Origin: Eledone cirrhosa
Taxonomy: Eukaryota
Direction of reading: 5' to 3'
Assembly: GCA_964016885.1 (NCBI GenBank)
Contig: OZ024762.1
Location: 11,780,001 to 11,844,000 of the forward strand
Length of the DNA: 64,000 nucleotides
In this document: positions 3,131 through 38,249 of the stretch, piece after piece
Layout of the letters: the number at the start of each line of letters is the position of its first letter
How positions within the stretch are numbered: the stretch's first letter is position 1
Notes under the pieces: model-generated
What the model saw: only the letters and a program-made list of their open reading frames with translations
The model's database searches: none
What the model was told of the DNA's origin: nothing
Made by a program: the position numbers and the translations under genes

Positions 3131-3164
3131 AATATGTAGGTATATTCCCCATCTTCTATTCGTG

Positions 3165-3221
3165 TATATGCTGTTATATATATACAAAATACTAGCAGTT
3201 CCTTAATGGCTATATACCCTG

Positions 3222-3260
<39 letters not shown>

Positions 3261-3790
3261 ATACTAGCAGTTCCTCAATGGCTATATACCCTGTTATATA
3301 TGTACAAAATACTAGCAGTTCCTCAATGGCTATATACCCTGTTATATATGTATAAAATACTAACAGTTCCTCAATGGCTATATACCCTGTTATATATGTA
3401 CAAAATACTAGCAGTTCCTTAATGGCTATATACCCTGTTATCTATATATATATATATATACAATATACTAGCAGTTCCTCAATGGCTATATACCCTGTTA
3501 TATATGTACAATATACTAGCAGTTAGTCAATGGCTATATACCCTGTAATATATGTACAAAATACTAGCAGTTCCTCAATGGCTATATACCCTGTTATATA
3601 TATACAATATACTAGTAGTTCCTCAATGGCTATATACCCTGTTATATATATACAATATACTAGTAGTTCCTCAATGGCTATATACCCTGTTATATATATA
3701 CAAAATACTAGTAGTTCCTCAATGGCTATATACTCTGTTATATATATGTACAAAATACTAGCAGTTCCTCAATGGCTATATATCCCGTTA
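3165..3790 (+). repeat. 48-bp minisatellite at the outer end of the left arm
   Basis: Unit atactagcagttcctcaatggctatataccctgttatatatgtacaaa, about 12 copies. Confidence 0.9.
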
Positions 3791-3801
3791 TATTTATATA
3801 T

Positions 3802-3867
3802 AGAAACGGAAAGAAAGCGAGATAACACTCGGAATATGTCGTGTTATCTCGCTTTCTTTCCGTTTCT
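3802..3867. other. Perfect 27-bp-stem hairpin (collapsed MITE-like), with copies at about 12908-12972, 27219-27283 and 36035-36100
   Basis: agaaacggaaagaaagcgagataacac, a 12-nt loop, then gtgttatctcgctttctttccgtttct. Confidence 0.85.
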
Positions 3868-4927
3868 TTTTTTTTTAAAAAGAAGGAAAATGTTTAGCTA
3901 TAAGTATGCCTATTTGACTCTGTAGAATTGCGGCTTGTGCGTGGCGCTGCACGTAGCGTTTCTGGCTTCGCTGTCGTACTTCGGTATGGCATGACCACTC
4001 GATCGTGTCTGAAGTTCGAATCGTTGCGGGGGTCGGCCGGGACCACAGCAGGCTGGCTTTATGCTGGCCTGCTCTCCCCCTCGCATGAGTTTTTGCCAAA
4101 CAATTTGACGAGAGTTATCTCCCCTTAATTTGAATTATTTGCCCTTTGTTTACATTGAACTACTTCCGGTTTGTGGAACTCTTCTTACTTTGTTGTCATT
4201 TCTTTTCAGTGTATTGAAGCTGTAACATCATTCTACTTACTCTGGGACTATTAACGATACCGGTTTGGATTTTACGTTCGTGTAAAGAGGTTTGTAAAGT
4301 TTTATTCACACTCACGAATATTATTGAGACACAAAAATACATTTCACTATCTTGGAAATATACATACATTTAATTCTTCAATATAAATACATTCTTGTAG
4401 TGTTTTAGTTGCCATGTCTTTTAAATTTATTCTAAACACTCTTCACAGAACTAAACCTCCTTCCGAGAAACAAAACAAATAATATATACACGCAGCTACC
4501 TCTTCTAACTAAACATACATGTTACTTTCCTCTCTATACCTTATACCATCGTAATTTCTACGTCGAGTTACCTCGGCATCACCACCTTTACTCCAACTCA
4601 GCATTCTCTCTTGCACACATCATATCAACTATATATTTATATTATAATCGTATCTCTATTACACCTTCTCTGTATATACTTACTTAGAAGAAAGGTATAT
4701 CTCCTCATTATACACAGTATCCGGAGCTATATAAGAAACTGTAGTATATAGAATACAGACCCTCTCTCTATATATAAACACACTTACTTCGAAGTATCGT
4801 ATATATGCAGCATCTACATACACACAAGGCAAAGTTAAAACCCTCTTCTCTACTACTTTTCCCGAGGATACTTACATAAAACTCTGGATATTTTATCAAG
4901 GCATCTATTTTTTGTATGTAGAAGACA

Positions 4928-6775
4928 TTATAATAATAATGAAATTATTGTGTAAAGTGTTCAGGTGCACTACAACTCGTCAATATAGTACATAGAATAA
5001 TACACAAATGTCAGGGAAGTACATGTGTGTATGTGTTGGCGGATCTCGGGAAGCATGGAGGCCTTAAAGGATGCAGTGTCTCGACAGCTAACAACTGATG
5101 CAGGTAGTTTTTTCCCTGCTTCAGCAACTCTGAGCGTGAAAAAATGTTTCCGAAAGTCATTGGAACTGTGCTGTTTTCTTACTTTGTGGGCATGTCCACG
5201 TGTGTTAGACACATGGAAATCAAAAAGGTACTCAGGGTTGTTGTTGGCAACATGGTTAACAATTTTGTGGGTGTTTACCAAGTCAGTTGCCAGGCGTCGG
5301 AGCTTCAATGAATCCAAGCCCAGGGAAGCAAGGCGCTCAGAGTATGGCAGATGCCTTATGGAGGGTATTCGCTTGGTTGCACGTCTCTGAACAGTTTCCA
5401 GGCGGTCAATGTCCTGAGCAAGATAGGGGTTCCAGACTGGTGATGCAAATTCTAAGTGTGGTCGCACCATAGCTGTATACAGCCTTAAATAGATATCTGG
5501 AGAGCGGCTGACAAAGGTCTTGCTGAGTGATGCTAAGACACCCTCGGCCCTCTTGACAATTTTAGAGACGTGCCTCGTCCAACGCAAATCGCTGCTGACC
5601 GTAATGCCCAGGTCACGTTCACAGGAAGACTTCTTGATTTTAGTGCTGTGGGGGGAGTATGTGGACGCTGGGTTTTTACTCCCAAAATGCATGGTGGTGC
5701 ACTTGTCCACAGCTAGCTTGAGTTGCCAGTCTGAGATCCATTGTTGTATTGTGTCCAGGTCAGACTGCAAGCAAGATCTATAGTGTTCAGGATCTGTCCT
5801 TTTTATCTCAAGGTACAGCTTGATGTCGTCTGCGTACTTTAGTACTGTGGCATTCCTTAAGTTGGCATCTATGTCATTAATATATGCCACAAACAAAAGG
5901 GGGCCAACAACAGATCCCTGTGGTACACCAGATGACATCTCATATGGTGATGAATGCTGTCCCAGAACCGTGACTACCTCTCTTCGACTGAGAATGAAGG
6001 ACTTCAACCAGTTAAAAAGATCATCCTTCACACCCATTGCAAAGAGTTTTGCCATAAGCCTTTTGTGTGGCACAGAATTGAAGGCCTTCGCAAAGTCAAG
6101 GTAAACAACATCCACTCATGAGCCGCCATCAGTGATCTGGGTGATGTCCTCAAGAAACTCTATAAGTTGATCACAGCAGCTGGAGTTGGGGATAAATCCA
6201 AATTGCGAGGGCCGGATAAGGGATGTGTTCAAGTTTCCGTGACTAATGAAGTCCGGGTTGATACTTTTGACGTAGGAGTCAAAAAGATGAATCTTATTGC
6301 ATAGACTATGTGCATTCAAGGACAACAATTTGTACCTTGATTCCAGTCTATGATTATGTGCAGGGCATGGCAGGTTGTTCTGATTTAGTTTCCCAGAGTT
6401 TTTTCAGTTTCTTTATTGTCAGTTGTTGTGGGTACAGTGTTTTTCAGACCAGCTGGTGTCTCTTTTCCATGATTCGCCAGCCTTAACAAACTTCCATATC
6501 TGCCCAACATCTCGTAGGCTGAAGCTTTCATGTTCTGCCGAGCTGCGGTTTAGGGAAGCTGCAGCACGCAACTTTGGGCGGACATCAGGTGGAAGACCAG
6601 GGCGTGTTCGGAAAACAATCCGACTTTCACGCCTAGCTTTATCAGAGGCTACAAGGTATGAACGTGCCTCAGTTGAGTTTGAAAACGACAGTCTAATTAA
6701 CCTGGGTTTCGGGCCTGGTCGGCCAAGGCGTAGAGCACCCTTTGCGGGAGCACAGCACTATCCTTCTCAATCGAG
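4928..6775 (-). mobile_element. CR1/L2-group LINE, 5'-truncated and internally deleted (left-arm copy)
   Basis: ORF1 C-terminus (RLGRPGPKPRLIRLSF), APE start (LSLNAHSLCNK), RT motifs (YLDFAKAF, SGVPQGS, YADD) and a 3' UTR with an (ATT)n tail. Confidence 0.9.
4970..6328 (-). pseudogene. LINE ORF2 reverse transcriptase remnant
   Basis: ORF 4970-6115 has CR1-type RT and C-terminal motifs (RPHLEFASPVWNPY, LETVQRRATK). There is an upstream in-frame stop and most of the endonuclease is deleted. Confidence 0.85.
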
Positions 6776-8122
6776 GAAAAAAAAACCCCATACATACAGT
6801 TTTTTATAGAATACACTGCCTTGTTATATAAATATTGTACACACGTGTGTATATAATACACTTCTATATATATAGAAACTTACTACTAGATATTGTGTGT
6901 ACACAGCAAAGAATCTACTTTTTGTATGTAGAGACTCCTCTGTAACATCTAGAAGGCTTATATTTACTATCCTTCTCTATAATAAAAAAAAACCCATATA
7001 TACAGTAATACCTTATCTAGAGGCATATAAGAAACTGTATTTCACATCCCTAAACCCACCCTCCTAAGAAACTAAACTGTTCATGATAAAGAGGTTTAAT
7101 TTCTGCCTCTAGAAAAGTATTGGTGTTAGAGCTGTGTAATCTGGATTGTTTTTATTAATACCCTCTGCTTCTTTCCAGGTATGTTGAAGATCTCCGCCAG
7201 CTCAACTGATTGTGTAAATACACACAGTCGTCTCAAGAAATAAAATAACTCCAACAACAAAATGTAGTTTATTTATTGATCTTTATTTCACATTTTCATT
7301 TCTTATATATATACACAGGTAGTATCTTACATGTAGATCGTTTAACTTTCATTCATATTAAATATATAGGAATTAACAGCTGTGTATATATAACTAGTGG
7401 ATTGTTAAACACATGCCTAGAGATAAAAAGGTATTAACATGCGAGAGAATTCAATTATTATGTAATTAGTGAGAAACATCCTTCTTGAAAGAAGTGTATA
7501 TATAGAATAGATTAATTAATGTGTATGTACACTATAGAATCCCAGTAAGAAACATCCTTCTTACTGAAAGAAGTAAGTGTGGTGCTATAGAAAAGTTTCT
7601 TTGAGAATGGAAACTGTATATATATAATACAGTAATCCTAGCAAGTTTATTCCTTTCTGTGTATATAGGTATTCTATATCTCCTGTAAGAGGTTATAATA
7701 TCTATATATACAGGGCTATGTGGATATTCTATATCTCTCTCATATTTACCAGTAAGTATATAGGTATTAATAAAGAAGTTTCATATTATAAACATTTAAG
7801 ATGTGTATATATACAGTATTCTAGTAAGTTTATTTCCTTCTGTATATAGAATAAATTTGTATTCTATATCTCTCCCAGTATGTATATAGGAATAGAAGTA
7901 TGAATTCAGTTTGAAACATCTTTCATGAGAGTAATGTATATAATGCAGTATTATAGTGAGGCCATTTCTTTCTGTCTGTATACATATGCCTAGAGATAGA
8001 AGGGTGTTAATATGTATAGATTCTATAGAAGTAAGTGTATATACACACATGGTTTTAAGGTAATAGTATCCTATAGAATACACATACTAATCTCTATCTA
8101 GAGAAAAAAGTTCAACTCCTTA

Positions 8123-10957
8123 GCTATATATATATATATGTATATATACATACATATTTGTATACATACGTATGTATGTATATACTTATGTATACATACA
8201 TACGTATGTATGTATACATACGTATGTATGCATACATACATATGTATACATACGTATGTATACATACCTACGTATATATACATACCTACGTATATATACA
8301 TACGTATGTATATACATTCGTGTGTATATAAACATACGTATGTATGTATACATACGCATGTATGTATACATACACATGTATATATATACATAAGTATGTA
8401 TATATACATACGCATGTATACATATACATACATACGTATGTATGTATAGATACATACATACGTACGTATGTATGCATACCTATGTATGTATACATACATA
8501 CGTATGTATATACATACGTATGTATATAAACATACGTATGTATACATACGCATGTATGTATACATACGCATGTATATATATACATACGTATGTATATATA
8601 CATACGCATGTATACATATACATACATACGTATGTATGTATAGATACATACATACGTACGTATGTATGCATACCTATGTATGTATACATACGCATGTATA
8701 TATACATACGTATGCATATACATACGTATGTATCTATATATACGTATGTATATATATATACATACGTGTGTATGCATATACATAGGTATGCATACATACG
8801 TACGTATGCATGCATACATACGTATGTATATATACATACGTACGTATGTATGTATACATACGCATGTATATATACATACGTATGTATCTATATATACGTA
8901 TGTATGTATAAATACATACGTGTATATACATACATACATACGCATGTATATATATATATACATACGTATGTATGTATACATACGCTTGTATATATATACA
9001 TACGTATGTATGCATATACATACGCATGTATATATACATACGCATGTATATATATACATATGTATGTATACATACGCATGTATATATATACATACCTGTG
9101 TATGCGTATGTATGTATACATACGCATGTATATATATACATACGTATGTATAGATACATACATACGCATGTATATATACATACATATGTATAGATACATA
9201 CATACGTATGTATACATACGCATGTATAGATACATACGTACGTATGCATACCTATGTATGTATACATACGCATGTATATATATGTACATACGTATGTATG
9301 CATATACATACGTATGTATATATATACATATGTATGTATACATACGCATGTATATATATACATACGTGTGTATGCGTATGTATGTATACATATGCATGTA
9401 TATATATACATACGTGTGTATGTATACATACGTATGTATATATACATACGCATGTATATATACATACGCATGTATATATATACATACGCATGTATATATA
9501 TACATACGTATGTATATATATACATACGCATGTATATATATACATACGAATGTATGCATATACATACGTACGTATACATACGCATGTATATATATACATA
9601 CGTGTGTATGCATATACATACGTATGTATGTATGTATACATACGCATGTATATATATATACATACGTATGTATGCATATACATACGTATGTATATATACA
9701 TACGCATGTATATATATATACATACGTATGTATGCATATACATACGTATGTATATATACATACATACGCATGTATATATATACATACGAATGTATGCATA
9801 TATGTATGTATACATACGTATGCATACATACATACGTATGTATAAATACATACGCATGTATATATATACATACGCATGTATAGATACATACATACGCATG
9901 TATATATATACATACGTGTGTATGCATATACGTATGTATGTATACATACGCATGTATATATATATACATACGTATGCATGTATACATACGCATGTATATA
10001 TATACATACAAACGTATGCATACATACATACGTATGTATGTATACATACGCAAGCATATATATACATACGTATGTATATATACGTACGTATACATACATA
10101 CGTATGTATAAATACATACGCATGTATACATACGTACGTATGTATACATACGTATGTATGCATATACGTACGTATGTATGCATATACATACGTATGTATA
10201 TATATACATACGTATGTATATATACATACGTATGCATGTATACATACGCATGTATATATATACATACAAATGTATGCATATACATATGTATGTATACATA
10301 CATACGTATGTATGTATACATACGCATGTATATATATATACATACGTATGTATGCATATACATACGTATGTATATATATATACATACATACGCATGTATA
10401 TATATACATACGAATGTATGCATATATGTATGTATACATACGTATGCATACATACATACGTATGTATAAATGCATACGCATGTATATATATATATATACA
10501 TACGCATGTATAGATACATACATACGCATGTATATATACATACGTATGTATAGATACATACGCATGTATATATATACATACGTGTGTATGCATATACGTA
10601 TGTATGTATACATACGCATGTATATATATATACATACGTATGCATGTATACATACGCATGTATATATATACATACAAACGTATGCATACATACGTATGTA
10701 TGTATACATACGTATGTATATATACGTACGTATACATACATACGTATGTATAAATACATACGCATGTATATATATACATACGTATGTATACATATACATG
10801 CTTATGTATATATACATACGTATGTATATATATACATACGTATGTATGTATATAAACATACGTATGTATATATACATACGTATGTATGTATACATACATA
10901 CGTATGTATATATACATATGTATGTATATATACATACGTATGTATATATACATACAT
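8123..10957. repeat. Complex alternating purine/pyrimidine microsatellite (TA/TACA/TACG/CATG units), about 2.8 kb
   Basis: Read directly from the sequence. It is the source of the YIHTYVCM-type spurious ORFs. Confidence 0.97.
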
Positions 10958-12370
10958 CTTTAATTCCTTAGCTATATTTATATAATACAGTAGTCTAGAG
11001 ATGTATGTAGGTTGTTGTCTTTATATCTGTGTAGTGTAACTTCTAAATCTATAATGAAGATATGCTTTATATACACAAAGGTGTTTATATGGTGAGTATG
11101 CCTGTCTAGAGAACAGGGTAACTGCGTACATATGGTTCTACATACTGTACTCTATTGAACACAACTCCAATATATAATGGAGGTACTTCTTCCAATATAG
11201 AGAAGAAGGTATATTATAGACATGAAGTAAGCTTTGTGTGTCATATTGATTACAGTTTTTCTATATATGTGTGTATGTAAAGAACACTAAATTTCTTTGT
11301 ATTTATACAGTTAGCTCTCTTGCTTCTTAGGAAGCATGTACACGTTCTACTATGAGATGCTTATACACAACTAGAAGAACAATAGTAGTAGTTTCCTAAG
11401 AGACGTATGTGTAGTATCTAGTGAGAATGTATTGATATGTATGTACAGATCAAAACCTCTTATCTTATATATGTCGGATGTTCACTTCCAGGTTTCTACA
11501 TACACATGTATAATATAAAGAGAGACACACAATGTGGGTTTAGATATATTCTATAGAATACAGTTTCTTATATACAGACATGTCTACATTGATGTTATTT
11601 ACCTGTATATAGAGATGGTTTGTTTCTAATAGGTGTGTATCTAGGAAATAATTTATATAATATGAATCTAGTATACAGTGACAGAAGGTTTTTGTCTTCC
11701 TACAGTGTAAGAGGTGTCTAGTGTGTGTATATATACAGGGAGTAAATAATAAGGCAACAAAGGAAAATACTGGTTTATTCTTTTATTTCACAATTTATTT
11801 ACCTTTCTTCTTGAGATAGGGTTGTAGTAGTCTCCAGGTCTGGTCCTTAGGAATATAAAATAGGTTAGTTGTGTATATATAAAGGTTTAGTTTTGTATCT
11901 AGTGAAGAACGTTTATATATGGATGATGTAGCTATCAAGCAGGTGCGGATGCTAGAAGTAGTAGTAAGGAGTCTTACGGCAGAGTAATAGAGCTACCATG
12001 CTTCGTTAGATATAAAATATAACTGTATGGTTTAGCTTCTATATTCATATGTCTAGAGAAGGTTTAGTTTCATGTCTATTATTCCAGTATGAACAAGTTT
12101 GTATATTGCGCCTCATAAGTATCTGTGATGATAGAAGGGAGACCGTTTATATATGAATATAGCTTCATGTGTACGTATGTCCCCAGGATTCTTCCTATAC
12201 ATGGTTTACGGCTAATACATAAAAAGTGTCTTCTTGTATATAGAATATCTGTGTGTGTATTCAGGTATAAGATAAAATGTGTATCGAGAGGAAGTATGTA
12301 TATAGTATCGAGAGAAGATTTAGTTGTAACACGTTAGATCATGGTTAGTTTTGTTTCATAATAGAGGAGG

Positions 12371-13490
12371 GTAACATGTATGTTTAGTTAGAAGAGGTAG
12401 CTGCGTGTATATATTTAGTTTTGTTTCTTTAAAAGACATGGCAACTTACTTTTGTCTCTCAATAATGTGTGTGTATATACGGCAAATAAAACTTTACATA
12501 CCTCTTTACACGAACGTAAAATCCAAGTAAATAGAATGATGTTACCGCTTCAATACACTGAAGAGAAATGACAACAAAGTAAGAAGAGTTCCACAAACCG
12601 GAAGTAGTTCAATGTAAACAAAGGGCAAATAATTCAAATTGAGGGGAGATAACTCTCGTCAAATTGTTTGGCAAAAACTCATGCGAGGGGGAGAGCATGA
12701 GTTTTTCGGTATGGCATGACCACTCGATCGTGTCTGAAGTTCCCGCAACGATTCGAACTTCAGACACGATCGAGTGGTCATGCCATACCGAAGTACGACA
12801 ACGAAGCCAGAAACGCTACGTGCAGCGCCACGCACAAGCCGCAATTCTACAGAGTCAAATAGTCATACTTATAGCTAAACATTTTCCTTCTTTTTTAAAA
12901 AAAAAAAGAAACGGAAAGAAAGCAAGATAACACGACATATTCCGAGTGTTATCTCGTTTTCTTTCCGTTTCTCTTTCTATATAAATATAACGGGATATAT
13001 AGCCATTAAGGAACTGCTAGTGTTTTGTACATATATAACGGGATATACACGAATAGAAGCCAGGGAATATGTAGTAAGGGGTTGACTTATATAGGGAGTC
13101 AATAGTTTGACCATTTTTGCCCACTTCTCAGACATAAGATAAGGAGGAGGGTCACCTTATATTCGAGTATTTTGTACATCTATTCGTGTTAGACTAGACC
13201 GGCATCATCATGGGTAGAGCCGACCGGGTGCTACTGCGTTGAACGAGACTAAGGCTGTGATGGTCCTCAGGGCACTGCTGTCAATCGTCTTTGTGAGGGG
13301 CCACGTTTCTGCTCCATAGAGGAGAAGACTGATGCATCTTTTCAGAACAATTAATATGTAGGTAACATAGCCTTAGAGAGATCTGTATTTGTAATAGTTA
13401 GTATCGATTTGGGTAATCTTAAGACCATGATTCCAATCATCAATATATGTATTGATTAAACCTAAATATAGTATATAAAGAAGTGGATTT
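12371..13490 (-). repeat. Inverted copy of the arm-terminal module (GC-rich core, hairpin, one 48-bp unit, pogo/Tigger-like MITE end); mirrored at about 26700-27820
   Basis: 12371-13060 is the reverse complement of parts of 3155-4525. 13060-13490 matches 36660-37140 in direct orientation. Confidence 0.85.
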
Positions 13491-14199
13491 TAAAATATGC
13501 AATGATAGTGTCGAGAGAAGGCTTAGTTAGTTACTTCTAACAATGTACCACTATGAATAAGACAGAAGGCGGTGTATGTAGATAGAATGTTTAGTTTTCC
13601 TGAGTATGAAGGGGTTTTAGTTATTATTCTTAGTAAAAAGATGGTTATATTATACATATACGTCTCTAACATTCCTCCTGTATATGAAGGGTAGTGAAAT
13701 ATATTCTTGTGTCTCAGGAATAGCTACGTGTTTATCGATGAATTTAAGGGACAACTAAAACATTACATACCTCTTTAGAAGAATGAAGGTGTATATATAA
13801 ATGTAGCTTTATATGTGTATATTGATCTAGATAGGAAACTTTTCTTCCAGTGTATGGATTATAGAGGTGAATGCAATCACTAAAGAATGTTAATATATAT
13901 CTAAGACTGTATTTTCGAGTGTTTAGCAATGAATTAAAATATACATGGCAAATAAAGCGTTCGTATAGGTAAATTAGAGGGTATTTTACCTCAGCTAAAG
14001 AACATTTATATATATATAAATCTAGTTTTGTGTGTATTTAGGTTTAAATAAAACAATATGTACGTCTCTAGAATCTTTCTGTATATAGAATAATTGTTTC
14101 TACTTTTGGCACAAGGCCAGCAATTATCCAGTGCATTACTGGTACTTTATTTTATCGACCCCATAAGGATGAAAGGCATATAGAATAATGTATGTCTGT

Positions 14200-15290
14200 G
14201 AGTGTATATACGGCAAATAAAACATTACATACCTCTCACCATTAGTATAATATCCAGACTGATTCTATCAAATTACACGAGTAAATCCAAACGATGTTAA
14301 CAGTTTAATTCAATAAAGAAGAATGACAACAAACGAGAATAGTTCCAATCAGGGGCAAGTAATTCAAACGATAACTCTCGGCGAATTTTTTAGTAAAAAA
14401 TCAATGCGAGGCGGGGATGCAGGCCAGCATAACGCCGGGCTGCTGCCGCCGCAACGATTCGATCTTCAGACACATAGAATGGTCATGCCATACCGAAGTA
14501 CGACAGCGAAGTCCGAAACGTTACGTGCAGCGCCATGCACAGAGCGCAACTCTACCGAGTAAATTAGTCATACTTATAGTTAGAATTTTATTTATTAAAA
14601 AAATATATATATAGAGAAACGGAATGAAGACGAGATAACTGAGGGCGTGGAGAAATATCTCTTTCTGAATATATTTCGTATGGTGAGAGTTGAGATCTCT
14701 ACCGAATAATTATCAATATTATACTTCGTCTCCGAAATATTTTCAGAAAGAAATTACTTTTTCACGACCGTGTTACCTTACTTTCATCCCGTTTCTATAT
14801 GTAACAAGTTTAAACTACTAGTATTTAATACATATATATATATACAGAACAATAAGTATATTTACTTCAAGATAGTAATGTTTATGTTAATACAGAAAAT
14901 AAAAAATGCAAACCATCGATCTTAGTAATTAGTATCAATCACTAATTATCTATTTTGGTAATAAGCATCTTAAGACCATGATTTCCTTCATCGATATGTG
15001 ATTAGACCAAAATTTAGTATAATATATAAAGACTGTTCTCAGCTTATGACCAGTTTGCTTGGTGTTAAGTGTCTGAGAGTACAAGACTCTCCCTGGATAG
15101 TACGCTGGTCTACCACAGGACTAACTCCTCGGCTGTGAGTACTGGAGCAATGTGATGAATGCAGAACTTCCAAACTGTGAGAGTTACATGCATGCATGGA
15201 CCTGCAACTCCTAAGGGAGTCATACAGGCCACACATTGACATACAGTATTTCTAGGGCACTTTTTAAAACCTGTCAGACCCATCTCCTCT
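14200..15290 (-). repeat. Older, more diverged copy of the same module; mirrored at about 24900-25990
   Basis: Shares ggtcatgccataccgaagtacgacagcgaag with the other copies, and 15030-15280 matches 37150-37385. Confidence 0.75.
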
Positions 15291-18669: not shown

Positions 18670-18707
<38 letters not shown>

Positions 18708-18980: not shown

Positions 18981-19058
18981 TGTATATATATATACATGTA
19001 TATATATATATACATGTATATATATATATACATGTATATATAACTGTATATATATATA

Positions 19059-21483: not shown

Positions 21484-21521
<38 letters not shown>

Positions 21522-26100: not shown

Positions 26101-29100
26101 TTCTATATACAGAAAGATTCTAGAGACGTACATATTGTTTTATTTAAACCTAAATACACACAAAACTAGATTTATATATATATAAATGTTCTTTAGCTGA
26201 GGTAAAATACCCTCTAATTTACCTATACGAACGCTTTATTTGCCATGTATATTTTAATTCATTGCTAAACACTCGAAAATACAGTCTTAGATATATATTA
26301 ACATTCTTTAGTGATTGCATTCACCTCTATAATCCATACACTGGAAGAAAAGTTTCCTATCTAGATCAATATACACATATAAAGCTACATTTATATATAC
26401 ACCTTCATTCTTCTAAAGAGGTATGTAATGTTTTAGTTGTCCCTTAAATTCATCGATAAACACGTAGCTATTCCTGAGACACAAGAATATATTTCACTAC
26501 CCTTCATATACAGGAGGAATGTTAGAGACGTATATGTATAATATAACCATCTTTTTACTAAGAATAATAACTAAAACCCCTTCATACTCAGGAAAACTAA
26601 ACATTCTATCTACATACACCGCCTTCTGTCTTATTCATAGTGGTACATTGTTAGAAGTAACTAACTAAGCCTTCTCTCGACACTATCATTGCATATTTTA
26701 AAATCCACTTCTTTATATACTATATTTAGGTTTAATCAATACATATATTGATGATTGGAATCATGGTCTTAAGATTACCCAAATCGATACTAACTATTAC
26801 AAATACAGATCTCTCTAAGGCTATGTTACCTACATATTAATTGTTCTGAAAAGATGCATCAGTCTTCTCCTCTATGGAGCAGAAACGTGGCCCCTCACAA
26901 AGACGATTGACAGCAGTGCCCTGAGGACCATCACAGCCTTAGTCTCGTTCAACGCAGTAGCACCCGGTCGGCTCTACCCATGATGATGCCGGTCTAGTCT
27001 AACACGAATAGATGTACAAAATACTCGAATATAAGGTGACCCTCCTCCTTATCTTATGTCTGAGAAGTGGGCAAAAATGGTCAAACTATTGACTCCCTAT
27101 ATAAGTCAACCCCTTACTACATATTCCCTGGCTTCTATTCGTGTATATCCCGTTATATATGTACAAAACACTAGCAGTTCCTTAATGGCTATATATCCCG
27201 TTATATTTATATAGAAAGAGAAACGGAAAGAAAACGAGATAACACTCGGAATATGTCGTGTTATCTTGCTTTCTTTCCGTTTCTTTTTTTTTTTAAAAAA
27301 GAAGGAAAATGTTTAGCTATAAGTATGACTATTTGACTCTGTAGAATTGCGGCTTGTGCGTGGCGCTGCACGTAGCGTTTCTGGCTTCGTTGTCGTACTT
27401 CGGTATGGCATGACCACTCGATCGTGTCTGAAGTTCGAATCGTTGCGGGAACTTCAGACACGATCGAGTGGTCATGCCATACCGAAAAACTCATGCTCTC
27501 CCCCTCGCATGAGTTTTTGCCAAACAATTTGACGAGAGTTATCTCCCCTCAATTTGAATTATTTGCCCTTTGTTTACATTGAACTACTTCCGGTTTGTGG
27601 AACTCTTCTTACTTTGTTGTCATTTCTCTTCAGTGTATTGAAGCGGTAACATCATTCTATTTACTTGGATTTTACGTTCGTGTAAAGAGGTATGTAAAGT
27701 TTTATTTGCCGTATATACACACACATTATTGAGAGACAAAAGTAAGTTGCCATGTCTTTTAAAGAAACAAAACTAAATATATACACGCAGCTACCTCTTC
27801 TAACTAAACATACATGTTACCCTCCTCTATTATGAAACAAAACTAACCATGATCTAACGTGTTACAACTAAATCTTCTCTCGATACTATATACATACTTC
27901 CTCTCGATACACATTTTATCTTATACCTGAATACACACACAGATATTCTATATACAAGAAGACACTTTTTATGTATTAGCCGTAAACCATGTATAGGAAG
28001 AATCCTGGGGACATACGTACACATGAAGCTATATTCATATATAAACGGTCTCCCTTCTATCATCACAGATACTTATGAGGCGCAATATACAAACTTGTTC
28101 ATACTGGAATAATAGACATGAAACTAAACCTTCTCTAGACATATGAATATAGAAGCTAAACCATACAGTTATATTTTATATCTAACGAAGCATGGTAGCT
28201 CTATTACTCTGCCGTAAGACTCCTTACTACTACTTCTAGCATCCGCACCTGCTTGATAGCTACATCATCCATATATAAACGTTCTTCACTAGATACAAAA
28301 CTAAACCTTTATATATACACAACTAACCTATTTTATATTCCTAAGGACCAGACCTGGAGACTACTACAACCCTATCTCAAGAAGAAAGGTAAATAAATTG
28401 TGAAATAAAAGAATAAACCAGTATTTTCCTTTGTTGCCTTATTATTTACTCCCTGTATATATACACACACTAGACACCTCTTACACTGTAGGAAGACAAA
28501 AACCTTCTGTCACTGTATACTAGATTCATATTATATAAATTATTTCCTAGATACACACCTATTAGAAACAAACCATCTCTATATACAGGTAAATAACATC
28601 AATGTAGACATGTCTGTATATAAGAAACTGTATTCTATAGAATATATCTAAACCCACATTGTGTGTCTCTCTTTATATTATACATGTGTATGTAGAAACC
28701 TGGAAGTGAACATCCGACATATATAAGATAAGAGGTTTTGATCTGTACATACATATCAATACATTCTCACTAGATACTACACATACGTCTCTTAGGAAAC
28801 TACTACTATTGTTCTTCTAGTTGTGTATAAGCATCTCATAGTAGAACGTGTACATGCTTCCTAAGAAGCAAGAGAGCTAACTGTATAAATACAAAGAAAT
28901 TTAGTGTTCTTTACATACACACATATATAGAAAAACTGTAATCAATATGACACACAAAGCTTACTTCATGTCTATAATATACCTTCTTCTCTATATTGGA
29001 AGAAGTACCTCCATTATATATTGGAGTTGTGTTCAATAGAGTACAGTATGTAGAACCATATGTACGCAGTTACCCTGTTCTCTAGACAGGCATACTCACC

Positions 29101-29233
29101 ATATAAACACCTTTGTGTATATAAAGCATATCTTCATTATAGATTTAGAAGTTACACTACACAGATATAAAGACAACAACCTACATACATCTCTAGACTA
29201 CTGTATTATATAAATATAGCTAAGGAATTAAAG

Positions 29234-31775
29234 ATGTATGTATATATACATACGTATGTATATATACATACATACGTATGTATATATACATACGTATGTA
29301 TATATATACATACGTATGTATATATACATAAGCATGTATATGTATACATACGTATGTATATATATACATGCGTATGTATTTATACATACGTATGTATGTA
29401 TACGTACGTATATATACATACGTATGTATACATACATATGTATGTATGCATACGTTTGTATGTATATATATATACATGCGTATGCATACGTATGTATATA
29501 TATATACATGCGTATGTATACATACATACGTATATATACATACTTGCGTATGTATACATACATACGTATATGCATACACACGTATGTATATATATACATG
29601 CGTATGTATCTATACATGCGTATGTATATATATATATATACATGCGTATGTATTTATACATACGTCTGTATATATATATGCATACATTCGTATGTATATG
29701 CATACATACGTATGTATATATACATGCGTATGTATACATACATACGTATATATACATACATATGTATATGCATACATTTGTATGTATATATATACATGCG
29801 TATGTATACATGCATACGTATGTATATATACATACGTATGTATATATATACATACGTATGTATATGCATACATACGTACGTATATGCATACATACGTATG
29901 TATACATGCGTATGTATGTATGTATGCATACGTTTGTATGTATATATATACATGCGTATGTATACATACATACTTACGTATGTATGTATCTATACGTATG
30001 TATGTATCTATACATGCGTATGTATACATACATACGTATATGCATACACACGTATGTATATATATACATGCGTATGTATATATACATGCGTATGTATGTA
30101 TTTATACATGCGTATGTATATATATATACATGCGTATGTATTTATACATACGTATGTATGTATGCATACGTATGTATACATACATATATGCATACATTCG
30201 TATGTATATATATACATGCGTATGTATGTATATATATATACATGCGTATGTATACATACATACGTATGTATGTATATGCATACATTTGTATGTATATATA
30301 TACATGCGTATGTATACATGCATACGTATGTATATGCATACATACGTACGTATATGCATACATACGTATGTATATATATATACATGCGTATGTATGTATA
30401 CATGCGTATGTATGTATCTATACATGCGTATGTATACATACGTATGTATATGCATACACACGTATGTATGTATATATACATGCGTATGTATATATACATG
30501 CGTATGTATATATATACATGCATATGTATACATACATACGTATGTATACATACATACGTATATATACATGCATATGTATATGCATACATACGTATGTATA
30601 TATATACAAGCGTAAGTATATATATATACATACGTATGTATATGCATACATACGTATGTACATATATATACATGCGTATGTATACATACATAGGTATGCA
30701 TACATACGTACGTATGTATGTATACATACATGCGTATGTATGTATCTATACATGCGTATGTATACATACATACGTATGTATGTATCTATACATACGTATG
30801 TATATATATACATGCGTATGTATACATACATACGCATACACACGTATGTATATATATACATGCGTATGTATATATACATGCGTATGTATATGCATACATA
30901 CGTATGTATATATATATATACATACGTACGTACGTATGTATGCATACCTATGTATATGCATACACACGTATGTATATATATACATGCGTATGTATACATA
31001 CATACGTATGTATGTATCTATACATACATACGTATGTAAATATACGTATGTATATATATACATGCGTATGTATGTATATACACGTATGTATTTATACATA
31101 CGTATGTATATGCATACGTATGTATATATACATGCGTATGTATACATACATAGGTATGCATACATACGTACGTATGTATGTATTTATACATACATACGTA
31201 TGTATGTAAATATACGTATGTATATGTATACATGCGTATGTATACATACATGCGTATGTATACATACATGCGTATGTATACATACATGCGTATGTATACA
31301 TACATACGTATGTTTATATACATACGTATGTATACATACATAGGTATGCATACATACGTATGTATATATACATACATATATATACATACGTATGTATATG
31401 CATACGTATGTATATATACGTATGTATATATATATATATATATACGTATGTGTATATATACATACGTAGGTATGTATACATACCTACGTATGTATATATA
31501 TACATACGTATTTATACATACGTATGTATGCATACACACGAATGTATATACATACGTATGTATATATACGTAGGTATGTATATATACGTAGGTATGTATA
31601 TATACATAGGTATGTATACATACGTATGTATGTATACATATGTATGTATGCATACATACGTATGTATACATACATACGTATGTATGTATACATAAGTATA
31701 TACATACATACGTATGTATACAAATATGTATGTATATATATATATACGTATGTATATATACATACATATATATAG
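29234..31775. repeat. Mirror copy of the complex RY microsatellite, about 2.5 kb
   Basis: Same units and same flanks in reverse complement, about 290 bp shorter than the left copy. Confidence 0.97.
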
Positions 31776-33127
31776 CTAAGGAGTTGAACTTTTTTCTCTA
31801 GATAGAGATTAGTATGTGTATTCTATAGGATACTATTACCTTAAAACCACGTGTGTATATACACTTACTTCTATAGAATCTATACATATTAACACCCTTC
31901 TATCTCTAGGCATATGTATACAGACAGAAAGAAATGGCCTCACTATAATACTGCATTATATACACTACTTTCATGAAAGATGTTTCAAACTGAATTCATA
32001 CTTCTATTCCTATATACATACTGGGAGAGATATAGAATACAAATTTATTCTATATACAGAAGGAAATAAACTTACTAGAATACTGTATATATACACATCT
32101 TAAATGTTTATAATATGAAACTTCTTTATTAATACCTATATACTTACTGGTAAATATGAGAGAGATATAGAATATCCACATAGCCCTGTATATATAGATA
32201 TTATAACCTCTTACAGGAGATATAGAATACCTATATACACAGAAAGAAATAAACTTGCTAGGATTACTGTATTATATATATACAGTTTCCATTCTCAAAG
32301 AAACTTTTCTATAGCACCACACTTACTTCTTTCAGTAAGAAGGATGTTTCTTACTGGGATTCTATAGTGTACATACACATTAATTAATCTATTCTATATA
32401 TACACTTCTTTCAAGAAGGATGTTTCTCACTAATTACATAATAATTGAATTCTCTCGCATGTTAATACCTTTTTATCTCTAGGCATGTGTTTAACAATCC
32501 ACTAGTTATATATACACAGCTGTTAATTCCTATATATTTAATATGAATGAAAGTTAAACGATCTACATGTAAGATACTACCTGTGTATATATATAAGAAA
32601 TGAAAATGTGAAATAAAGATCAATAAATAAACTACATTTTGTTGTTGGAGTTATTTTATTTCTTGAGACGACTGTGTGTATTTACACAATCAGTTGAGCT
32701 GGCGGAGATCTTCAACATACCTGGAAAGAAGCAGAGGGTATTAATAAAAACAATCCAGATTACACAGCTCTAACACCAATACTTTTCTAGAGGCAGAAAT
32801 TAAACCTCTTTATCATGAACAGTTTAGTTTCTTAGGAGAGTGGGTTTAGGGATGTGAAATACAGTTTCTTATATGCCTCTAGATAAGGTATTACTGTATA
32901 TATGGGTTTTTTTTTATTATAGAGAAGGATAGTAAATATAAGCCTTCTAGATGTTACAGAGGAGTCTCTACATACAAAAAGTAGATTCTTTGCTGTGTAC
33001 ACACAATATCTAGTAGTAAGTTTCTATATATATATAGAAGTGTATTATATACACACATGTGTACAATATTTATATAACAAGGCAGTGTATTCTATAAAAA
33101 ACTGTATGTATGGGGAGTTTTTTTCCT

Positions 33128-34975
33128 CTATTGAGAAGGATAGTGCTGTGCTCCCGCAAAGGGTGCTCTACGCCTTGGCCGACCAGGCCCGAAACCCAGG
33201 TTAATTAGACTGTCGTTTTCAAACTCAACTGAGGCACGTTCATACCTTGTAGCCTCTGATAAAGCTAGGCGTGAAAGTCGGATTGTTTTCCGAACACGCC
33301 CTGGTCTTCCACCTGATGTCCGCCCAAAGTTGCGTGCTGCAGCTTCCCTAAACCGCAGCTCGGCAGAACATGAAAGCTTCAGCCTACGAGATGTTGGGCA
33401 GATATGGAAGTTTGTTAAGGCTGGCGAATCATGGAAAAGAGACACCAGCTGGTTTGAAAAACACTGTACCCACAACAACTGACAATAAAGAAACTGGAAA
33501 AACTCTGGGAAACTAAATCAGAACAACCTGCCATGCCCTGCACATAATCATAGACTGGAATCAAGGTACAAATTGTTGTCCTTGAATGCACATAGTCTAT
33601 GCAATAAGATTCATCTTTTTGACTCCTACGTCAAAAGTATCAACCCGGACTTCATTACAGTCACGGAAACTTGAGCACATCCCTTATCCGGCCCTCGCAA
33701 TTTGGATTTATCCCCAACTCCAGCTGCTGTGATCAACTTATAGAGTTTCTTGAGGACATCACCCGGATCACTGATGGCGGCTCATGAGTGGATGTTGTTT
33801 ACCTTGACTTTGCGAAGGCCTTCAATTCTGTGCCACACAAAAGGCTTATGGCAAAACTCTTTGCAATGGGTGTGAAGGATGATCTTTTTAACTGGTTGAA
33901 GTCCTTCATTCTCAGTCGAAGAGAGGTAGTCACGGTTCTGGGACAGCATTCATCACCATATGAGATGTCATCTGGTGTACCACAGGGATCTGTTGTTGGC
34001 CCCCTTTTGTTTGTGGCATATATTAATGACATAGATGCCAACTTAAGGAATGCCACAGTACTAAAGTACGCAGACGACATCAAGCTGTACCTTGAGATAA
34101 AAAGGACAGATCCTGAACACTATAGATCTTGCTTGCAGTCTGACCTGGACACAATACAACAATGGATCTCAGACTGGCAACTCAAGCTAGCTGTGGACAA
34201 GTGCACCACCATGCATTTTGGGAGTAAAAACCCAGCGTCCACATACTCCCTCCACAGCACTAATATCAAGAAGTCTTCCTGTGAACGTGACCTGGGCATT
34301 ACGGTCAGCAGCGATTTGCGTTGGACGAGGCACGTCTCTAAAATTGTCAAGAGGGCCGAGGGTGTCTTAGCATCACTCAGCAAGACCTTTGTCAGCCGCT
34401 CTCCAGATATCTATTTAAGGCTGTATACAGCTATGGTGCGACCACACTTAGAATTTGCATCACCAGTCTGGAACCCCTATCTTGCTCAGGACATTGACCG
34501 CCTGGAAACTGTTCAGAGACGTGCAACCAAGCGAATACCCTCCATAAGGCATCTGCCATACTCTGAGCGCCTTGCTTCCCTGGGCTTGGATTCATTGAAG
34601 CTCCGACGCCTGGCAACTGACTTGGTAAACACCCACAAAATTGTTAACCATGTTGCCAACAACAACCCTGAGTACCTTTTTGATTTCCATGTGTCTAACA
34701 CACGTGGACATGCCCACAAAGTAAGAAAACAGCACAGTTCCAATGACTTTCGGAAACATTTTTTCACGCTCAGAGTTGCTGAAGCAGGGAAAAAACTACC
34801 TGCATCAGTTGTTAGCTGTCGAGACACTGCATCCTTTAAGGCCTCCATGCTTCCAGAGATCCGCTAACACATACACACATGTACTTCCCTGACATTTGTG
34901 TATTATTCTATGTACTATATTGACGAGTTGTAGTGCACCTGAGCACTTTACACAATAATTTCATTATTATTATAA
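33128..34975 (+). mobile_element. CR1/L2-group LINE, 5'-truncated and internally deleted (right-arm copy)
   Basis: Mirror of 4928-6775. RT ORF at 33788-34867, ending in an attattattat tail. Confidence 0.9.
33788..34867 (+). pseudogene. LINE ORF2 reverse transcriptase remnant
   Basis: 359-aa ORF with YLDFAKAF, SGVPQGS and KYADD motifs. Confidence 0.85.
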
Positions 34976-36111
34976 TGTCTTCTACATACAAAAAATAGAT
35001 GCCTTGATAAAATATCCAGAGTTTTATGTAAGTATCCTCGGGAAAAGTAGTAGAGAAGAGGGTTTTAACTTTGCCTTGTGTGTATGTAGATGCTGCATAT
35101 ATACGATACTTCGAAGTAAGTGTGTTTATATATAGAGAGAGGGTCTGTATTCTATATACTACAGTTTCTTATATAGCTCCGGATACTGTGTATAATGAGG
35201 AGATATACCTTTCTTCTAAGTAAGTATATACAGAGAAGGTGTAATAGAGATACGATTATAATATAAATATATAGTTGATATGATGTGTGCAAGAGAGAAT
35301 GGTGAGTTGGAGTAAAGGTGGTGATGCCGAGGTAACTCGACGTAGAAATTACGATGGTATAAGGTATAGAGAGGAAAGTAACATGTATGTTTAGTTAGAA
35401 GAGGTAGCTGCGTGTATATATTATTTGTTTTGTTTCTCGGAAGGAGGTTTAGTTCTGTGAAGAGTGTTTAGAATAAATTTAAAAGACATAGCAACTAAAA
35501 CACTACAAGAATGTATTTATATTGAAGAATTAAATGTATGTATATTTCCAAGATAGTGAAATGTATTTTTGTGTCTCAATAATATTCGTGAGTGTGAATA
35601 AAACTTTACAAACCTCTTTACACGAACGTAAAATCCAAACCGGTATCGTTAATAGTCCCAGAGTAAGTAGAATGATGTTACCGCTTCAATACACTGAAAA
35701 GAAATGACAACAAAGTAAGAAGAGTTCCACAAACCGGAAGTAGTTCAATGTAAACAAAGGGCAAATAATTCAAATTAAGGGGAGACAACTCTCGTCAAAT
35801 TGTTTGGCAAAAACTCATGCGAGGGGGAGAGCAGGCCAGCATAAAGCCAGCCTGCTGTGGTCCCGGCCGACCCCCGCAACGATTCGAACTTCAGACACGA
35901 TCGAGTGGTCATGCCATACCGAAGTACGACAGCGAAGCCAGAAACGCTACGTGCAGCGCCACGCACAAGCCGCAATTCTACAGAGTCAAATAGGCATACT
36001 TATAGCTAAACATTTTCCTTCTTTTTAAAAAAAAAGAAACGGAAAGAAAGCGAGATAACACGACATATTCCGAGTGTTATCTCGCTTTCTTTCCGTTTCT
36101 CTATATATATA

Positions 36112-36640
36112 TAACGGGATATATAACCATTGAGGAACTGCTAGTATTTTGTACATATATATAACAGGGTATATAGCCATTGAGGAACTACTAGTATTTT
36201 GTATATATATAACAGAGTATATAGCCATTGAGGAACTACTAGTATTTTGTATATATATAACAGGGTATATAGCCATTGAGGAACTACTAGTATTTTGTAT
36301 ATATATAACAGAGTATATAGCCATTGAGGAACTACTAGTATTTTGTATATATATAACAGGGTATATAGCTATTAAGGAACTACTAGTATTTTGTATATAT
36401 ATAACAGGGTATATAGCCATTGAGGAACTACTAGTATTTTGTATATATATAACAGGGTATATAGCCATTGACTAACTGCTAGTATATTGTACATATATTA
36501 CAGGGTATGTAGACATTGAGGAACTGTTAGTATTTCATACATATATAGCCATTGAGGAACTACTAGTATTTTGTACATATATAACAGGATATATAGTCGT
36601 TAAGGGACTACTAGTATATTGTACATATATAACAGGATAT
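36112..36640 (-). repeat. 48-bp minisatellite at the outer end of the right arm
   Basis: Reverse complement of the 3165-3790 unit, with a different copy number and different variants. Confidence 0.9.
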
Positions 36641-38249
36641 ACACGAATAGAAGATGGGGATTGTGTAACCCCCCAAAATCGATAGTAGAAGGGGGTTGAC
36701 TTATATACGGAGTCAATAGCTTGACGATTTTCACCAACTTCAAATTCTTCGTAAATAAGGTTTCTCAGACACAAGATCGGGATGATGGTTACCTTATATT
36801 TGAGTATTTTGTACATTTATTCTTTTTCTTGCTCGACGAGGCCAGCATCGTCATGAGACGACCAGGTGTGGCTGATGCGTGCACTTGTGGACCCATCTGA
36901 TGTTCTTGATGGTCCTCAGGGCTCTGCTGTCGATCGTCTTTGTGAGGGGCCACGTTTCTGCTACATGGAGAGGACCAATGCATCTATTCAGAACAATTAA
37001 TATGTAGATAAATATACTTACTTCAATATGGTAACATAACCTTAGGCAGATCTGTATATGGAAAACAATTTTGGTAATCTTAAGACCATGATTCCAATCA
37101 TCGATATATGTATTGATTAAACCTAAATTTAGTATATAAATAAGTTAAAGTCTGTTCTAAGTTTCTCACCAGTTTCCTTGGAGTTAAGTGTCAGAGTAGA
37201 AGACTCCCTGGTTAGGACACTGGTCTATCGTAGGATTAACTCCTCAGCTGAGTGTACTGGAGCTATGTGAAATATTTTCCAAGCTGTGAGAGTTACATGT
37301 ATGTATGGACCCATAACTCCTCAGGAAGTCATCGAGGCAATGCATTGACCTAGTGTTTCTAGGGCTCTTTTGAAAACCTGGCAGAGATACAGTCCTGCCA
37401 CCACAACAAAAACCACATAGGCCACCCTATAAGGTGGTTGTGCTGATAACAATAAAAGGCTATAAGGTGAAACCCAGTGGCACAGCAAAACATCTTAGGG
37501 TGAATTGAACTCTGTAACCTTAATATTTCACCAACTGTGGAGGAGGGTGGTTTTGGTGTGTCAGGTAGGCTTGCTTACCAAGAGTGGCAGATGGTCAATC
37601 AACTGGTAGAGAAGGACTAAAGTTCACAGGGGAATGAACAGCAGCAATGAAAACATCATATCTGTTCCCCTGTCTTTAGCCTGGATTGATTCAAAAATGT
37701 AACCTTGCATAAGATGATGTCTGGTGTTGTAGCATGATCAAACCATCATGTAACTATGAGTACCATTGAAATATATATTACAGATTTATGAATAAAGGAT
37801 TTTTAAACATCTTCACTGAACTTCATAATTATCCTTATTGTATATATATACTCCATCATGAAGCAATAAATGATATTTGCAAGAAAACACATGATGTTGA
37901 GCACTTTAATCTAATTACATCATTATTCACTAATTGGTGTGTTGTATATGCAACCCTCATTAGTCAACATGTTTACCATAAGTATATATGTATATATAGG
38001 CTCCCAATGGCTTATATGCACCACCCCTTTTCCTCTAATCTGCTCTCCCTACCACCCTCTCTTATCCACACACAGATACAACATTGATGCACCACACTTA
38101 GATACATTAAACATACAACAAAACTTGAACACACATTTCTCACTTAACGTTGTATAGTGTAGTTGCTACGACATCATTTTACATACTCTTTTCCCTACTT
38201 GCAAGGATGGGACTTTTAAGTTGCTCGTAAAAGTGGTCCTTCTCTTCTT

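What the first reader, a model, noticed from the sequence alone, without database searches (positions are those of the whole stretch)
3146..36660. ~33.5-kb giant palindrome with 16-17 kb arms and only a ~115-bp unique loop
Seen in the sequence: more than half the window is one inverted duplication, 3146-19987 vs 20461-36660. The 473-bp spacer is itself an imperfect inverted repeat, so only about 20150-20266 is unpaired. The arms carry no recognisable host gene. They differ in tandem-array copy number (88-bp: about 10 vs 7; RY microsatellite: about 2.8 vs 2.5 kb) and in discrete SNPs, which argues against a trivial read fold-back. Established knowledge: long near-perfect palindromes with tiny spacers are normally unstable. 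Inference: this is a palindromic amplification product, a giant foldback-type mobile element, or a hairpin-RNA locus.
Basis: partly seen in the sequence, partly recalled or inferred. Interest (0 to 1): 0.85.

Follow-up and report, generated by a model that had tools for sequence, protein, structure and literature searches.

The report
Giant palindrome centred on hairpin repeat
A 33.5-kb stretch of an animal genome reads as two mirror-image 16-17-kb arms that meet at a small multi-copy hairpin repeat; it likely arose when a broken strand folded back at that hairpin, and its arms were likely kept alike since by copying from each other, but no read has yet confirmed that this exact structure exists outside the assembly.

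Summary
The palindrome is in the sequence as described: arms 3146-19987 and 20461-36660, spacer 473 bp. Three corrections follow.

(1) Arm identity is stepped, not uniform: about 12% different in the outer 81 bp, 0.5% over the next 4.3 kb, 1 substitution in an 8,309-bp inner tract that ends inside tandem arrays, then 4-32% at the tip.

(2) The 'unique loop' is not unique. Public reads show it as a multi-copy hairpin (MITE-like) repeat.

(3) The arms carry an R3H exon-like fragment, besides LINE and mariner remnants.

There is no target-site duplication. The right arm runs on into its ancestral neighbour sequence, while the left arm is cut into a decayed retroelement, so this is a duplication rather than an inserted foldback transposon.

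Best reading (0.62): fold-back inverted duplication seeded by the hairpin repeat, later homogenised by arm-to-arm gene conversion, as in mammalian X/Y palindromes. Misassembly of two haplotypes (0.2) is not excluded: the one read lay neither showed this exact copy nor formally bridged the centre. The scan noted a similar animal inverted duplication on other DNA (e1-7394466).

The parts
3146..19987 (.). Left arm (16,842 bp); likely the derived copy
20461..36660 (.). Right arm (16,200 bp); likely the ancestral side, since it runs on into the homologous continuation of unit X
19988..20460 (.). Tip: imperfect inverted repeat, member of a multi-copy hairpin (MITE-like) family; symmetry centre about 20222. 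The left half lacks a 20-bp and a 12-bp segment present in the right half; each gap is bounded by short direct repeats.
2901..3145 (+). Decayed, frameshifted LTR-retroelement-like RT fragment in which the left arm ends; a 4-bp overlap (3142-3145) could belong to either side
   Evidence: Weak: RVT_1 E=0.12; Ty3 RT chains 4ol8/7q5b E=0.23/0.96; frames and junction; no second match in the window
3142..3222 (.). Outer edge of left arm: 10 differences in 81 bp from the right edge 36584-36664 (7 private to the right copy against the older inner copy)
3223..3801 (.). 48-bp minisatellite (about 11 units; mirror 36104-36641), unit patterns differ between arms
3802..8124 (.). Outer unique arm (mirror 31775-36103): 22 substitutions and 3 indels, evenly spread (KS p=0.80); begins with a 66-bp hairpin at 3802-3867
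4973..6115 (-). Young non-LTR (LINE) reverse transcriptase frame, 381 aa; the mirror copy (33788-34933, +) has two residue changes and an earlier stop
   Evidence: RVT_1 E=5.4e-27
8125..10957 (.). RY (TATA/TGTA/TACA/TACG) array, 2,833 bp; mirror 29236-31774, 2,539 bp; many indels, longest exact arm-to-arm match 157 bp; flanked by a direct repeat of about 13 bp
10917..19225 (.). Near-identical tract, 8,309 bp (mirror 20966-29274): 1 substitution (16879/23312, inside a 58-bp array), no indel, 16 of 16 listed simple runs equal; both ends lie inside tandem arrays
12363..13484 (+). Older copy of local CpG-rich unit X; its mirror 26707-27827 and 35371-37145 form an older nested inverted pair (85 mismatches in 1,059 aligned columns, 8%)
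14197..15278 (+). Still older copy of unit X (70-80% identity)
15721..15924 (-). R3H-domain exon-like fragment (pyrimidine tract and CAG before 15849; runs into a mariner-end-like stretch and a stop); mirror 24267-24470(+). Likeness to NFX1 is recalled, not tested.
   Evidence: Pfam PF01424 E=4.7e-9; Atlas R3H clusters 0.81-0.85, lead only
17021..17312 (-). Decayed mariner-like 5' fragment; its end resembles the 88-bp unit and the 55 bp next to the tip
   Evidence: HTH_48 E=0.028, below cutoff
18343..18570 (+). Third, separate copy of the tip repeat inside the arm (mirror 21621-21848)
19059..19932 (.). 88-bp minisatellite, 9.9 units; mirror 20498-21132, 7.2 units; only the outermost unit shares its variant pattern
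36661..37385 (+). Right flank: continuation of unit X beyond the arm, so the right arm end is not a new junction

Best explanation
The window holds a 33.5-kb inverted duplication whose axis lies in a multi-copy hairpin repeat; it likely formed by fold-back DNA synthesis primed at that hairpin, and its arms have likely been homogenised since by arm-to-arm gene conversion. Steps: (1, shown) the tip is an imperfect inverted repeat present in many copies in related public data. (2, inferred) A break or stalled fork to its left exposed a single strand that folded back on the repeat and copied about 16.8 kb of the right-hand sequence. (3, inferred) The new end was joined, over about 4 bp of overlap, into a decayed retroelement, with loss or displacement of what lay between; there is no target-site duplication. 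(4, shown) Arm divergence is stepped: about 12% at the outer 81 bp, 0.5% over 4.3 kb, 0.012% over 8.3 kb, 4% and then 32% at the tip. (5, inferred) The duplication is as old as its edges; long conversion tracts, the latest about 8.3 kb and ending in length-mismatched tandem arrays, reset the middle. (6, inferred) The mismatches and indels at the tip limit cruciform extrusion and let it persist. No function is implied: the arms hold only repeats and a broken R3H exon-like fragment.
For: Asymmetric ends: right end continuous with homologous sequence, left end cut into a retroelement fragment. Axis inside a pre-existing repeat family, as in human fold-back duplications whose junctions lie in inverted Alu/L1 pairs of 82-95% identity (PMC3907307, passages); diverged inverted repeats fold back in single-stranded DNA in yeast (PMC10164571, abstract). 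The 20-bp gap at 19987/19988 is bounded by a 4-bp repeat. Stepped divergence, Fisher p=8.5e-10; edge 10 of 81. The 8,309-bp tract ends inside arrays at both ends, within the range of palindrome conversion tracts, mean 2,068 bp and maximum over 9 kb (PMC3723533, abstract). Natural palindromes of this geometry exist: human X arms 8-140 kb, identity up to 99.99%, spacers from 77 bp (PMC8327919, passages). The right tip-to-arm junction is real genomic sequence: one X2 contig covers 20421-20490 with 1 other letter. An older nested inverted pair shows that the locus did this before.
Against: No read or contig spans an arm, an outer junction or the two arms; none of the 24 pieces listed (935 more not shown) has 31 letters on both sides of 20222. 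The left tip junction 19988-20009 has depth 0 in 4 of 4 runs, and at several tip sites all laid depth in X2/X3 carries another letter than the window. This copy is therefore not shown in those runs; contigs drop rare variants, so this is not proof of absence. No arm-versus-flank depth was measured. Near-identical unique sequence with differing tandem arrays is also what two alleles look like. Array turnover can inflate the edge divergence (50 of the 81 edge bases are array; 3 of the 31 others differ). The retroelement call at the left junction is weak. No intact gene was found in the arms, whereas conserved primate palindromes carry genes.
Confidence: 0.62

Rival explanations
1. Misassembly: the two arms are the two haplotypes of one locus, joined head to head at the hairpin repeat and its 88-bp arrays; the two outer flanks would then be alternative neighbours at a heterozygous rearrangement breakpoint.
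For: 0.5% outer divergence with differing VNTR lengths resembles allelic difference. No spanning read evidence and zero depth at 19988-20009 in 4 of 4 runs. Palindromes of an early Adineta vaga assembly vanished in a long-read assembly and were ascribed to erroneous scaffolding of phased haplotypes (PMC8494291, passages). Fold-back reads make up about 0.55-0.6% of ONT gDNA reads (PMC12338684, passages).
Against: It needs two rare things together: unrelated flanks and a misjoin across a repeat of only about 2 kb. A single folded read would give mirror-identical arrays and tip halves; these differ. The right tip junction is genomic. No gap in the window. Divergence falls from 12% to 0.5% within about 0.7 kb of the outer junction, steeper than I would expect at an old inversion breakpoint (own knowledge). 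Fold-back reads were virtually absent from HiFi data.
Confidence: 0.2
2. The tip plus arm is one copy of a larger multi-copy, foldback-like mobile or amplifying unit, whose left end here has been cut off by a later deletion.
For: The junction of the tip with the decayed mariner-like end is on an X2 contig of depth 118.8, about 13-21 times the lowest-depth contigs listed (the tool warns that depth is no copy number). The small run X5 holds 0.32 of the inner-arm words. The arms are modular, with internal tandem arrays and repeated units.
Against: No target-site duplication and no matched termini. The right end is not a terminus. No transposase or other intact mobility frame among 110 frames scanned, apart from the LINE RT. 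Depth on the arms themselves was not measured.
Confidence: 0.1
3. Real, but built in two separate duplication events rather than kept by conversion: an older inverted copy of the outer arm, then a very recent fold-back that added the inner 8.3 kb.
For: Sharp step in divergence at the RY array. [quoted passage not shown]
Against: The 88-bp arrays lie between the tip and the identical tract, yet differ in most units. A recent copy made outward from the tip should mirror them. At sequence level this grades into the long conversion tract of the best explanation.
Confidence: 0.05
4. A functional long hairpin-RNA (endo-siRNA or editing substrate) locus transcribed through the tip.
For: Any read-through transcript would fold strongly. 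X5, of unrecorded kind, holds part of the inner arm.
Against: X5 has zero depth over 19988-20317. No Rfam family at gathering score; weak hits are microsatellite or hairpin matches. No RNA run on record among the holders.
Confidence: 0.03

Closest known systems
Large palindromes of mammalian X and Y chromosomes (PMC8327919 passages; PMC3723533 abstract; PMC8600007 passages)
   Same: Arms over 8 kb and over 99% alike, very short spacer possible (77 bp upward), unstable centre, multi-kilobase conversion tracts.
   Different: Invertebrate-type genome, chromosome unknown; no intact gene in the arms; identity falls in discrete steps bounded by tandem arrays; conversion here is inferred from one sequence, not from a phylogeny.
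Fold-back inverted duplications with a single-copy spacer (Hermetz et al. 2014, PMC3907307, abstract and passages; yeast fold-back inversions, PMC7467729, passages)
   Same: Inverted copy beside the original, short spacer, inverted homology in a dispersed repeat at the turn, outer end joined to unrelated sequence.
   Different: Those are new, often megabase, disease-linked events with spacers of 766-70,466 bp and terminal deletions. This one is 16-17 kb, interstitial, has a 473-bp spacer made wholly of the repeat, and looks old.
Foldback-type DNA transposons (Drosophila FB, Galileo; features recalled; one passage in PMC6431247)
   Same: Long inverted arms with internal tandem arrays around a short centre.
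   Different: No target-site duplication, no matched termini, arms many times longer and made of ordinary genomic repeats.
Artefactual palindromes (haplotype mis-scaffolding in Adineta vaga, PMC8494291 passages; fold-back reads, PMC12338684 passages)
   Same: Mirror arms with allele-like differences, unconfirmed by reads.
   Different: Unrelated outer flanks, no gap, asymmetric tip that is real genomic sequence, arrays that differ between arms.

Membership tests
Fold-back inverted duplication | Inverted copy adjacent to the original with a short non-duplicated spacer | tested here: met
   Arms 16,842/16,200 bp, spacer 473 bp
Fold-back inverted duplication | Pre-existing inverted homology at the turn | tested here: met
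   Tip is a multi-copy inverted repeat
Fold-back inverted duplication | One ancestral end and one new junction to unrelated sequence | tested here: met
   Right end continuous with unit X homology; left end inside an RT-like fragment
Fold-back inverted duplication | Doubled copy number over the arms and reads across the junctions | tested here: inconclusive
   Only the tip was laid; no formal bridge, this exact copy not shown
Fold-back inverted duplication | Unduplicated ancestral allele known | not testable with these tools
   No genome held; no eukaryote assemblies to search
Conversion-maintained large palindrome (mammalian X/Y type) | Arms over 8 kb at over 99% identity | tested here: met
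   0.5% and 0.012% in unique sequence
Conversion-maintained large palindrome (mammalian X/Y type) | Arm-to-arm divergence lower than the age of the duplication (needs orthologues or a phylogeny) | tested here: inconclusive
   Only internal evidence: edges more diverged than the middle
Conversion-maintained large palindrome (mammalian X/Y type) | Intact protein-coding gene in arms or spacer | tested here: not met
   110 frames of 55 aa or more scanned; only a broken R3H fragment and a LINE RT hit above cutoff in the arm. Short exons and 4 dropped frames were not covered.
Conversion-maintained large palindrome (mammalian X/Y type) | Location on a sex chromosome | not testable with these tools
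   No chromosome context
Foldback transposon | Target-site duplication at the outer ends | tested here: not met
   Only 4-5-bp chance matches at offset positions
Foldback transposon | Both arm ends are element termini inserted into one interrupted target | tested here: not met
   Right end runs on in unit X; left-flank fragment has no second match in the window
Foldback transposon | Dispersed copies of the whole element | tested here: inconclusive
MITE (for the tip alone) | Short, non-coding, inverted-repeat structure, many copies | tested here: met
MITE (for the tip alone) | Defined termini, target-site duplication and autonomous partner | tested here: inconclusive
   Family members leave the reference at several places (20417-20450); superfamily not assigned
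Hairpin-RNA locus | Transcript through the turn and small RNAs from the arms | not testable with these tools
Single-read fold-back artefact | Arms mirror one molecule exactly | tested here: not met
   Arrays, tip halves and outer arms differ

The most novel reading that the evidence does not exclude
A hairpin MITE-like family in this lineage repeatedly seeds giant, gene-less palindromes that persist by long arm-to-arm conversion tracts, with tandem arrays acting as tract boundaries. The multi-copy tip-plus-mariner junction would then mark a dozen or more sister palindromes: a self-propagating class of giant inverted repeats in an invertebrate germ line, kept without any gene to select on.
Probability: 0.12. 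Interest if true: 0.75.

Novelty: new member of a known kind. Interest (0 to 1): 0.4.

Why it matters
If real, it is a natural, apparently old 33-kb palindrome with almost no spacer and no intact gene, outside mammals. Primate palindromes are argued to survive through selection on their genes (PMC8327919), so a gene-less one tests whether conversion and tip asymmetry alone are enough. Its stepped divergence, with one 8.3-kb tract ending in tandem arrays, gives a direct handle on conversion tract length and on what stops a tract. If it is a misjoin, it is a clear example of haplotype switching at a hairpin repeat and the assembly needs correcting next to a Siah gene.

Tried and rejected
No whole genome is held, so copy number and orthologues could not be searched, and the scan holds no notes on this genome. 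Look-alike searches of earlier findings with the tip and with unit X found 0 windows.

Exact-pattern scans found nothing: tip core in metagenome contigs, unit X core in metagenome and viral contigs. A viral hairpin-telomere or concatemer-junction reading was dropped: no viral Pfam family among 110 frames, and host-type repeats throughout.

Rfam gave no family at gathering score; E-value hits were microsatellite or hairpin matches far below cutoff. ARAGORN found no tRNA, so a tRNA-like origin of unit X is unsupported.

A RIP-like mutation signature in the AT-rich arm segments was considered. TpA is raised only to about 1.2-1.35 there and the outer-arm substitutions show no such bias; rejected. 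Homology among these AT-rich segments is weak (best z = 9.2 against 12 crude shuffles, a control pair reached z = 5); not relied on.

X6 is a reduced-representation library whose molecules end at 20215-20218, so it cannot bridge the centre.

Literature: 'octopus genome' + palindrome + inverted repeat gave 0 papers; a five-term search on stabilised long palindromes gave 0; none of the 15 listed of 297 papers held 'cephalopod'. This is not proof that nothing is in print. No supplements were read.


Full report
OBSERVATION. Self-BLAST shows the inverted duplication. Exact pairing starts at 3146/36660; the arms are 16,842 and 16,200 bp around a 473-bp spacer. The centre folds at -212 kcal/mol, z = -31.6. 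The genome is an intron-rich, microsatellite-rich animal genome with a Sina/Siah RING exon at about 55240-55360. That its SINE-like repeats look octopus-like is recalled and was not tested. No whole genome is held.

DIVERGENCE LADDER. From outside in: (a) the outer 81 bp differ at 10 sites, 7 of them private to the right copy when the older inner copy is used as outgroup; 3 of the 31 non-array bases differ. (b) The 48-bp arrays differ in unit pattern. (c) 3802-8124 has 22 substitutions in 4,323 columns and 3 indels, evenly spread (KS p = 0.80). (d) The RY arrays differ by many indels; the longest exact match is 157 bp. (e) 10917-19225 matches 20966-29274 over 8,309 bp with one substitution and no indel; 16 of 16 simple runs listed there are equal, against 8 of 11 in the outer arm. 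About 42 substitutions would be expected at the outer rate (Fisher p = 8.5e-10). (f) The 88-bp arrays share only the outermost unit's variant pattern. (g) 19933-19987 is identical over 55 bp; 19988-20150 has 7 mismatches in 159 columns plus gaps of 20, 12 and 4 bp; 20151-20222 has 13 mismatches in 41 columns. A single folded molecule cannot give this pattern.

THE TIP IS A REPEAT. The two halves align with each other and with a third copy at 18343-18570 up to about 20222, so there is no unique loop. A search with 10990-18980 listed 8 public runs; I laid 4 of them (X2, X3, X5, X6) on 19900-20550. In X2 and X3, 29 of 30 bins have depth. Single contigs over the loop have depth 315.5 (20122-20184) and 101.1 (20214-20294), against 5.5-9.1 for the lowest-depth contigs listed; the tool warns that depth is no copy number. 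One X2 contig of depth 118.8 covers 20421-20490 with one other letter, so the right tip-to-arm junction is genomic and apparently multi-copy. Against the reading: 19988-20009 has zero depth in 4 of 4 runs; at about ten tip sites all or nearly all contig depth carries another letter than the window; and none of the 24 listed pieces (935 more not shown) has 31 letters on both sides of 20222 (best: 20206-20268). The lay therefore shows the family, not this copy. Contigs drop rare variants, so absence is not shown either.

THE ENDS. The right arm runs on without a break into 36661-37385, which is homologous to what follows two older copies of the same CpG-rich unit X inside the arm. The left arm stops inside a frameshifted RT-like fragment (weak hits: RVT_1 E = 0.12; Ty3 RT E = 0.23), with 4 bp (3142-3145) that fit either side. 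That fragment has no second match in the window, and no target-site duplication was found. So the right side is likely ancestral and the left a copy joined to unrelated DNA. Unit X also forms an older nested inverted pair, 26707-27827 vs 37145-35371, 8% diverged, so the locus has made inverted copies before.

ARM CONTENT. Of 110 frames scanned against Pfam (of 114 prepared; four were dropped), three passed a curated cutoff: the LINE RT (4973-6115), an R3H domain (15721-15924, E = 4.7e-9) and the Siah RING in the right flank. The R3H stretch follows a pyrimidine tract and CAG and runs into a mariner-end-like sequence and a stop: a broken exon-like fragment, NFX1-like by recall only. A mariner-like fragment lies at 17021-17312 (HTH_48 E = 0.028, below cutoff), and its end resembles the 88-bp unit. 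No Rfam family at gathering score and no tRNA.

MECHANISM. Best reading (0.62): fold-back synthesis primed at the hairpin repeat, rescue of the new end by a short-overlap join, then arm-to-arm conversion. In human fold-back duplications 3 of 21 sequenced junctions lie in inverted Alu or L1 pairs of 82-95% identity, with spacers of 766-70,466 bp (PMC3907307; abstract and passages). Diverged inverted repeats fold back in single-stranded DNA up to 25% heterology (PMC10164571; abstract). Yeast fold-back inversions are stabilised by secondary rearrangements (PMC7467729; passages). Conversion tracts in human Y palindrome P6 average 2,068 bp and exceed 9 kb (PMC3723533; abstract; PMC8600007 passages). 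The geometry, ladder, repeat nature of the tip and end asymmetry are shown; break, fold-back, conversion and stabilisation by tip mismatches are inferred.

RIVALS. Haplotype misjoin (0.2): known from Adineta vaga (PMC8494291; passages). It needs a heterozygous breakpoint at the outer end and a false join over about 2 kb. Fold-back reads are 0.55-0.6% in ONT gDNA and virtually absent from HiFi (PMC12338684; passages). Multi-copy foldback-like unit with a truncated left end (0.1): rests on the deep contig across the tip junction. Two-step duplication without conversion (0.05): opposed by the unlike 88-bp arrays. Hairpin-RNA locus (0.03): X5 has no depth over 19988-20317, but its kind is not on record.

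NOVELTY. 'Long palindromes with tiny spacers are unstable' is true in general, but natural ones exist: human X palindromes have arms of 8-140 kb, identity up to 99.99% and spacers from 77 bp (PMC8327919; passages). This is a new member of a known kind. What is less usual is the lack of an intact gene, the axis in a dispersed hairpin repeat and the stepped ladder bounded by arrays. My searches found no cephalopod report, which is weak evidence, and the taxon itself is untested. The scan noted a comparable animal inverted duplication with a 6.5-kb spacer on other DNA. Interest 0.4.

Noticed in passing
window 58255-58416 and 59234-59395: A second inverted pair, 162 bp at 98.8% identity, about 0.8 kb apart; looks like a young element with terminal inverted repeats.
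   Followed up: partly
window 12705-12792: A local 38-bp inverted duplication inside the older unit X copy replaces the sequence seen in the other copies; looks like a template-switch event.
   Followed up: partly
window 3802-3867, 12907-12974, 27217-27284, 36035-36100: A 66-bp near-perfect hairpin sits next to the 48-bp unit in the unit X copies; unit X is CpG-rich (observed/expected 1.4-1.7) in an otherwise CpG-poor window. Identity unknown.
   Followed up: partly
window 8117-8129 and 10964-10976: The RY array is flanked by a direct repeat of about 13 bp, as if inserted or expanded with a target duplication.
   Followed up: no
window 121-207, 746-873, 2022-2132 (+): Three apparent last exons of a host gene with open frames and splice-like sites; no Pfam hit in the frames scanned.
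   Followed up: partly
window 55240-55360 (-): Sina/Siah RING exon (Pfam PF21362 E=9.3e-16), about 19 kb from the right arm end.
   Followed up: no
run X5: A small run (88 million letters, longest contig 24 kb, kind not on record) holds 0.32 of the inner-arm words but nothing over the tip loop; if it is RNA, part of the inner arm is transcribed.
   Followed up: no
window 56378-56917: Perfect (ATGT)135 array, which suggests a long-read assembly.
   Followed up: no
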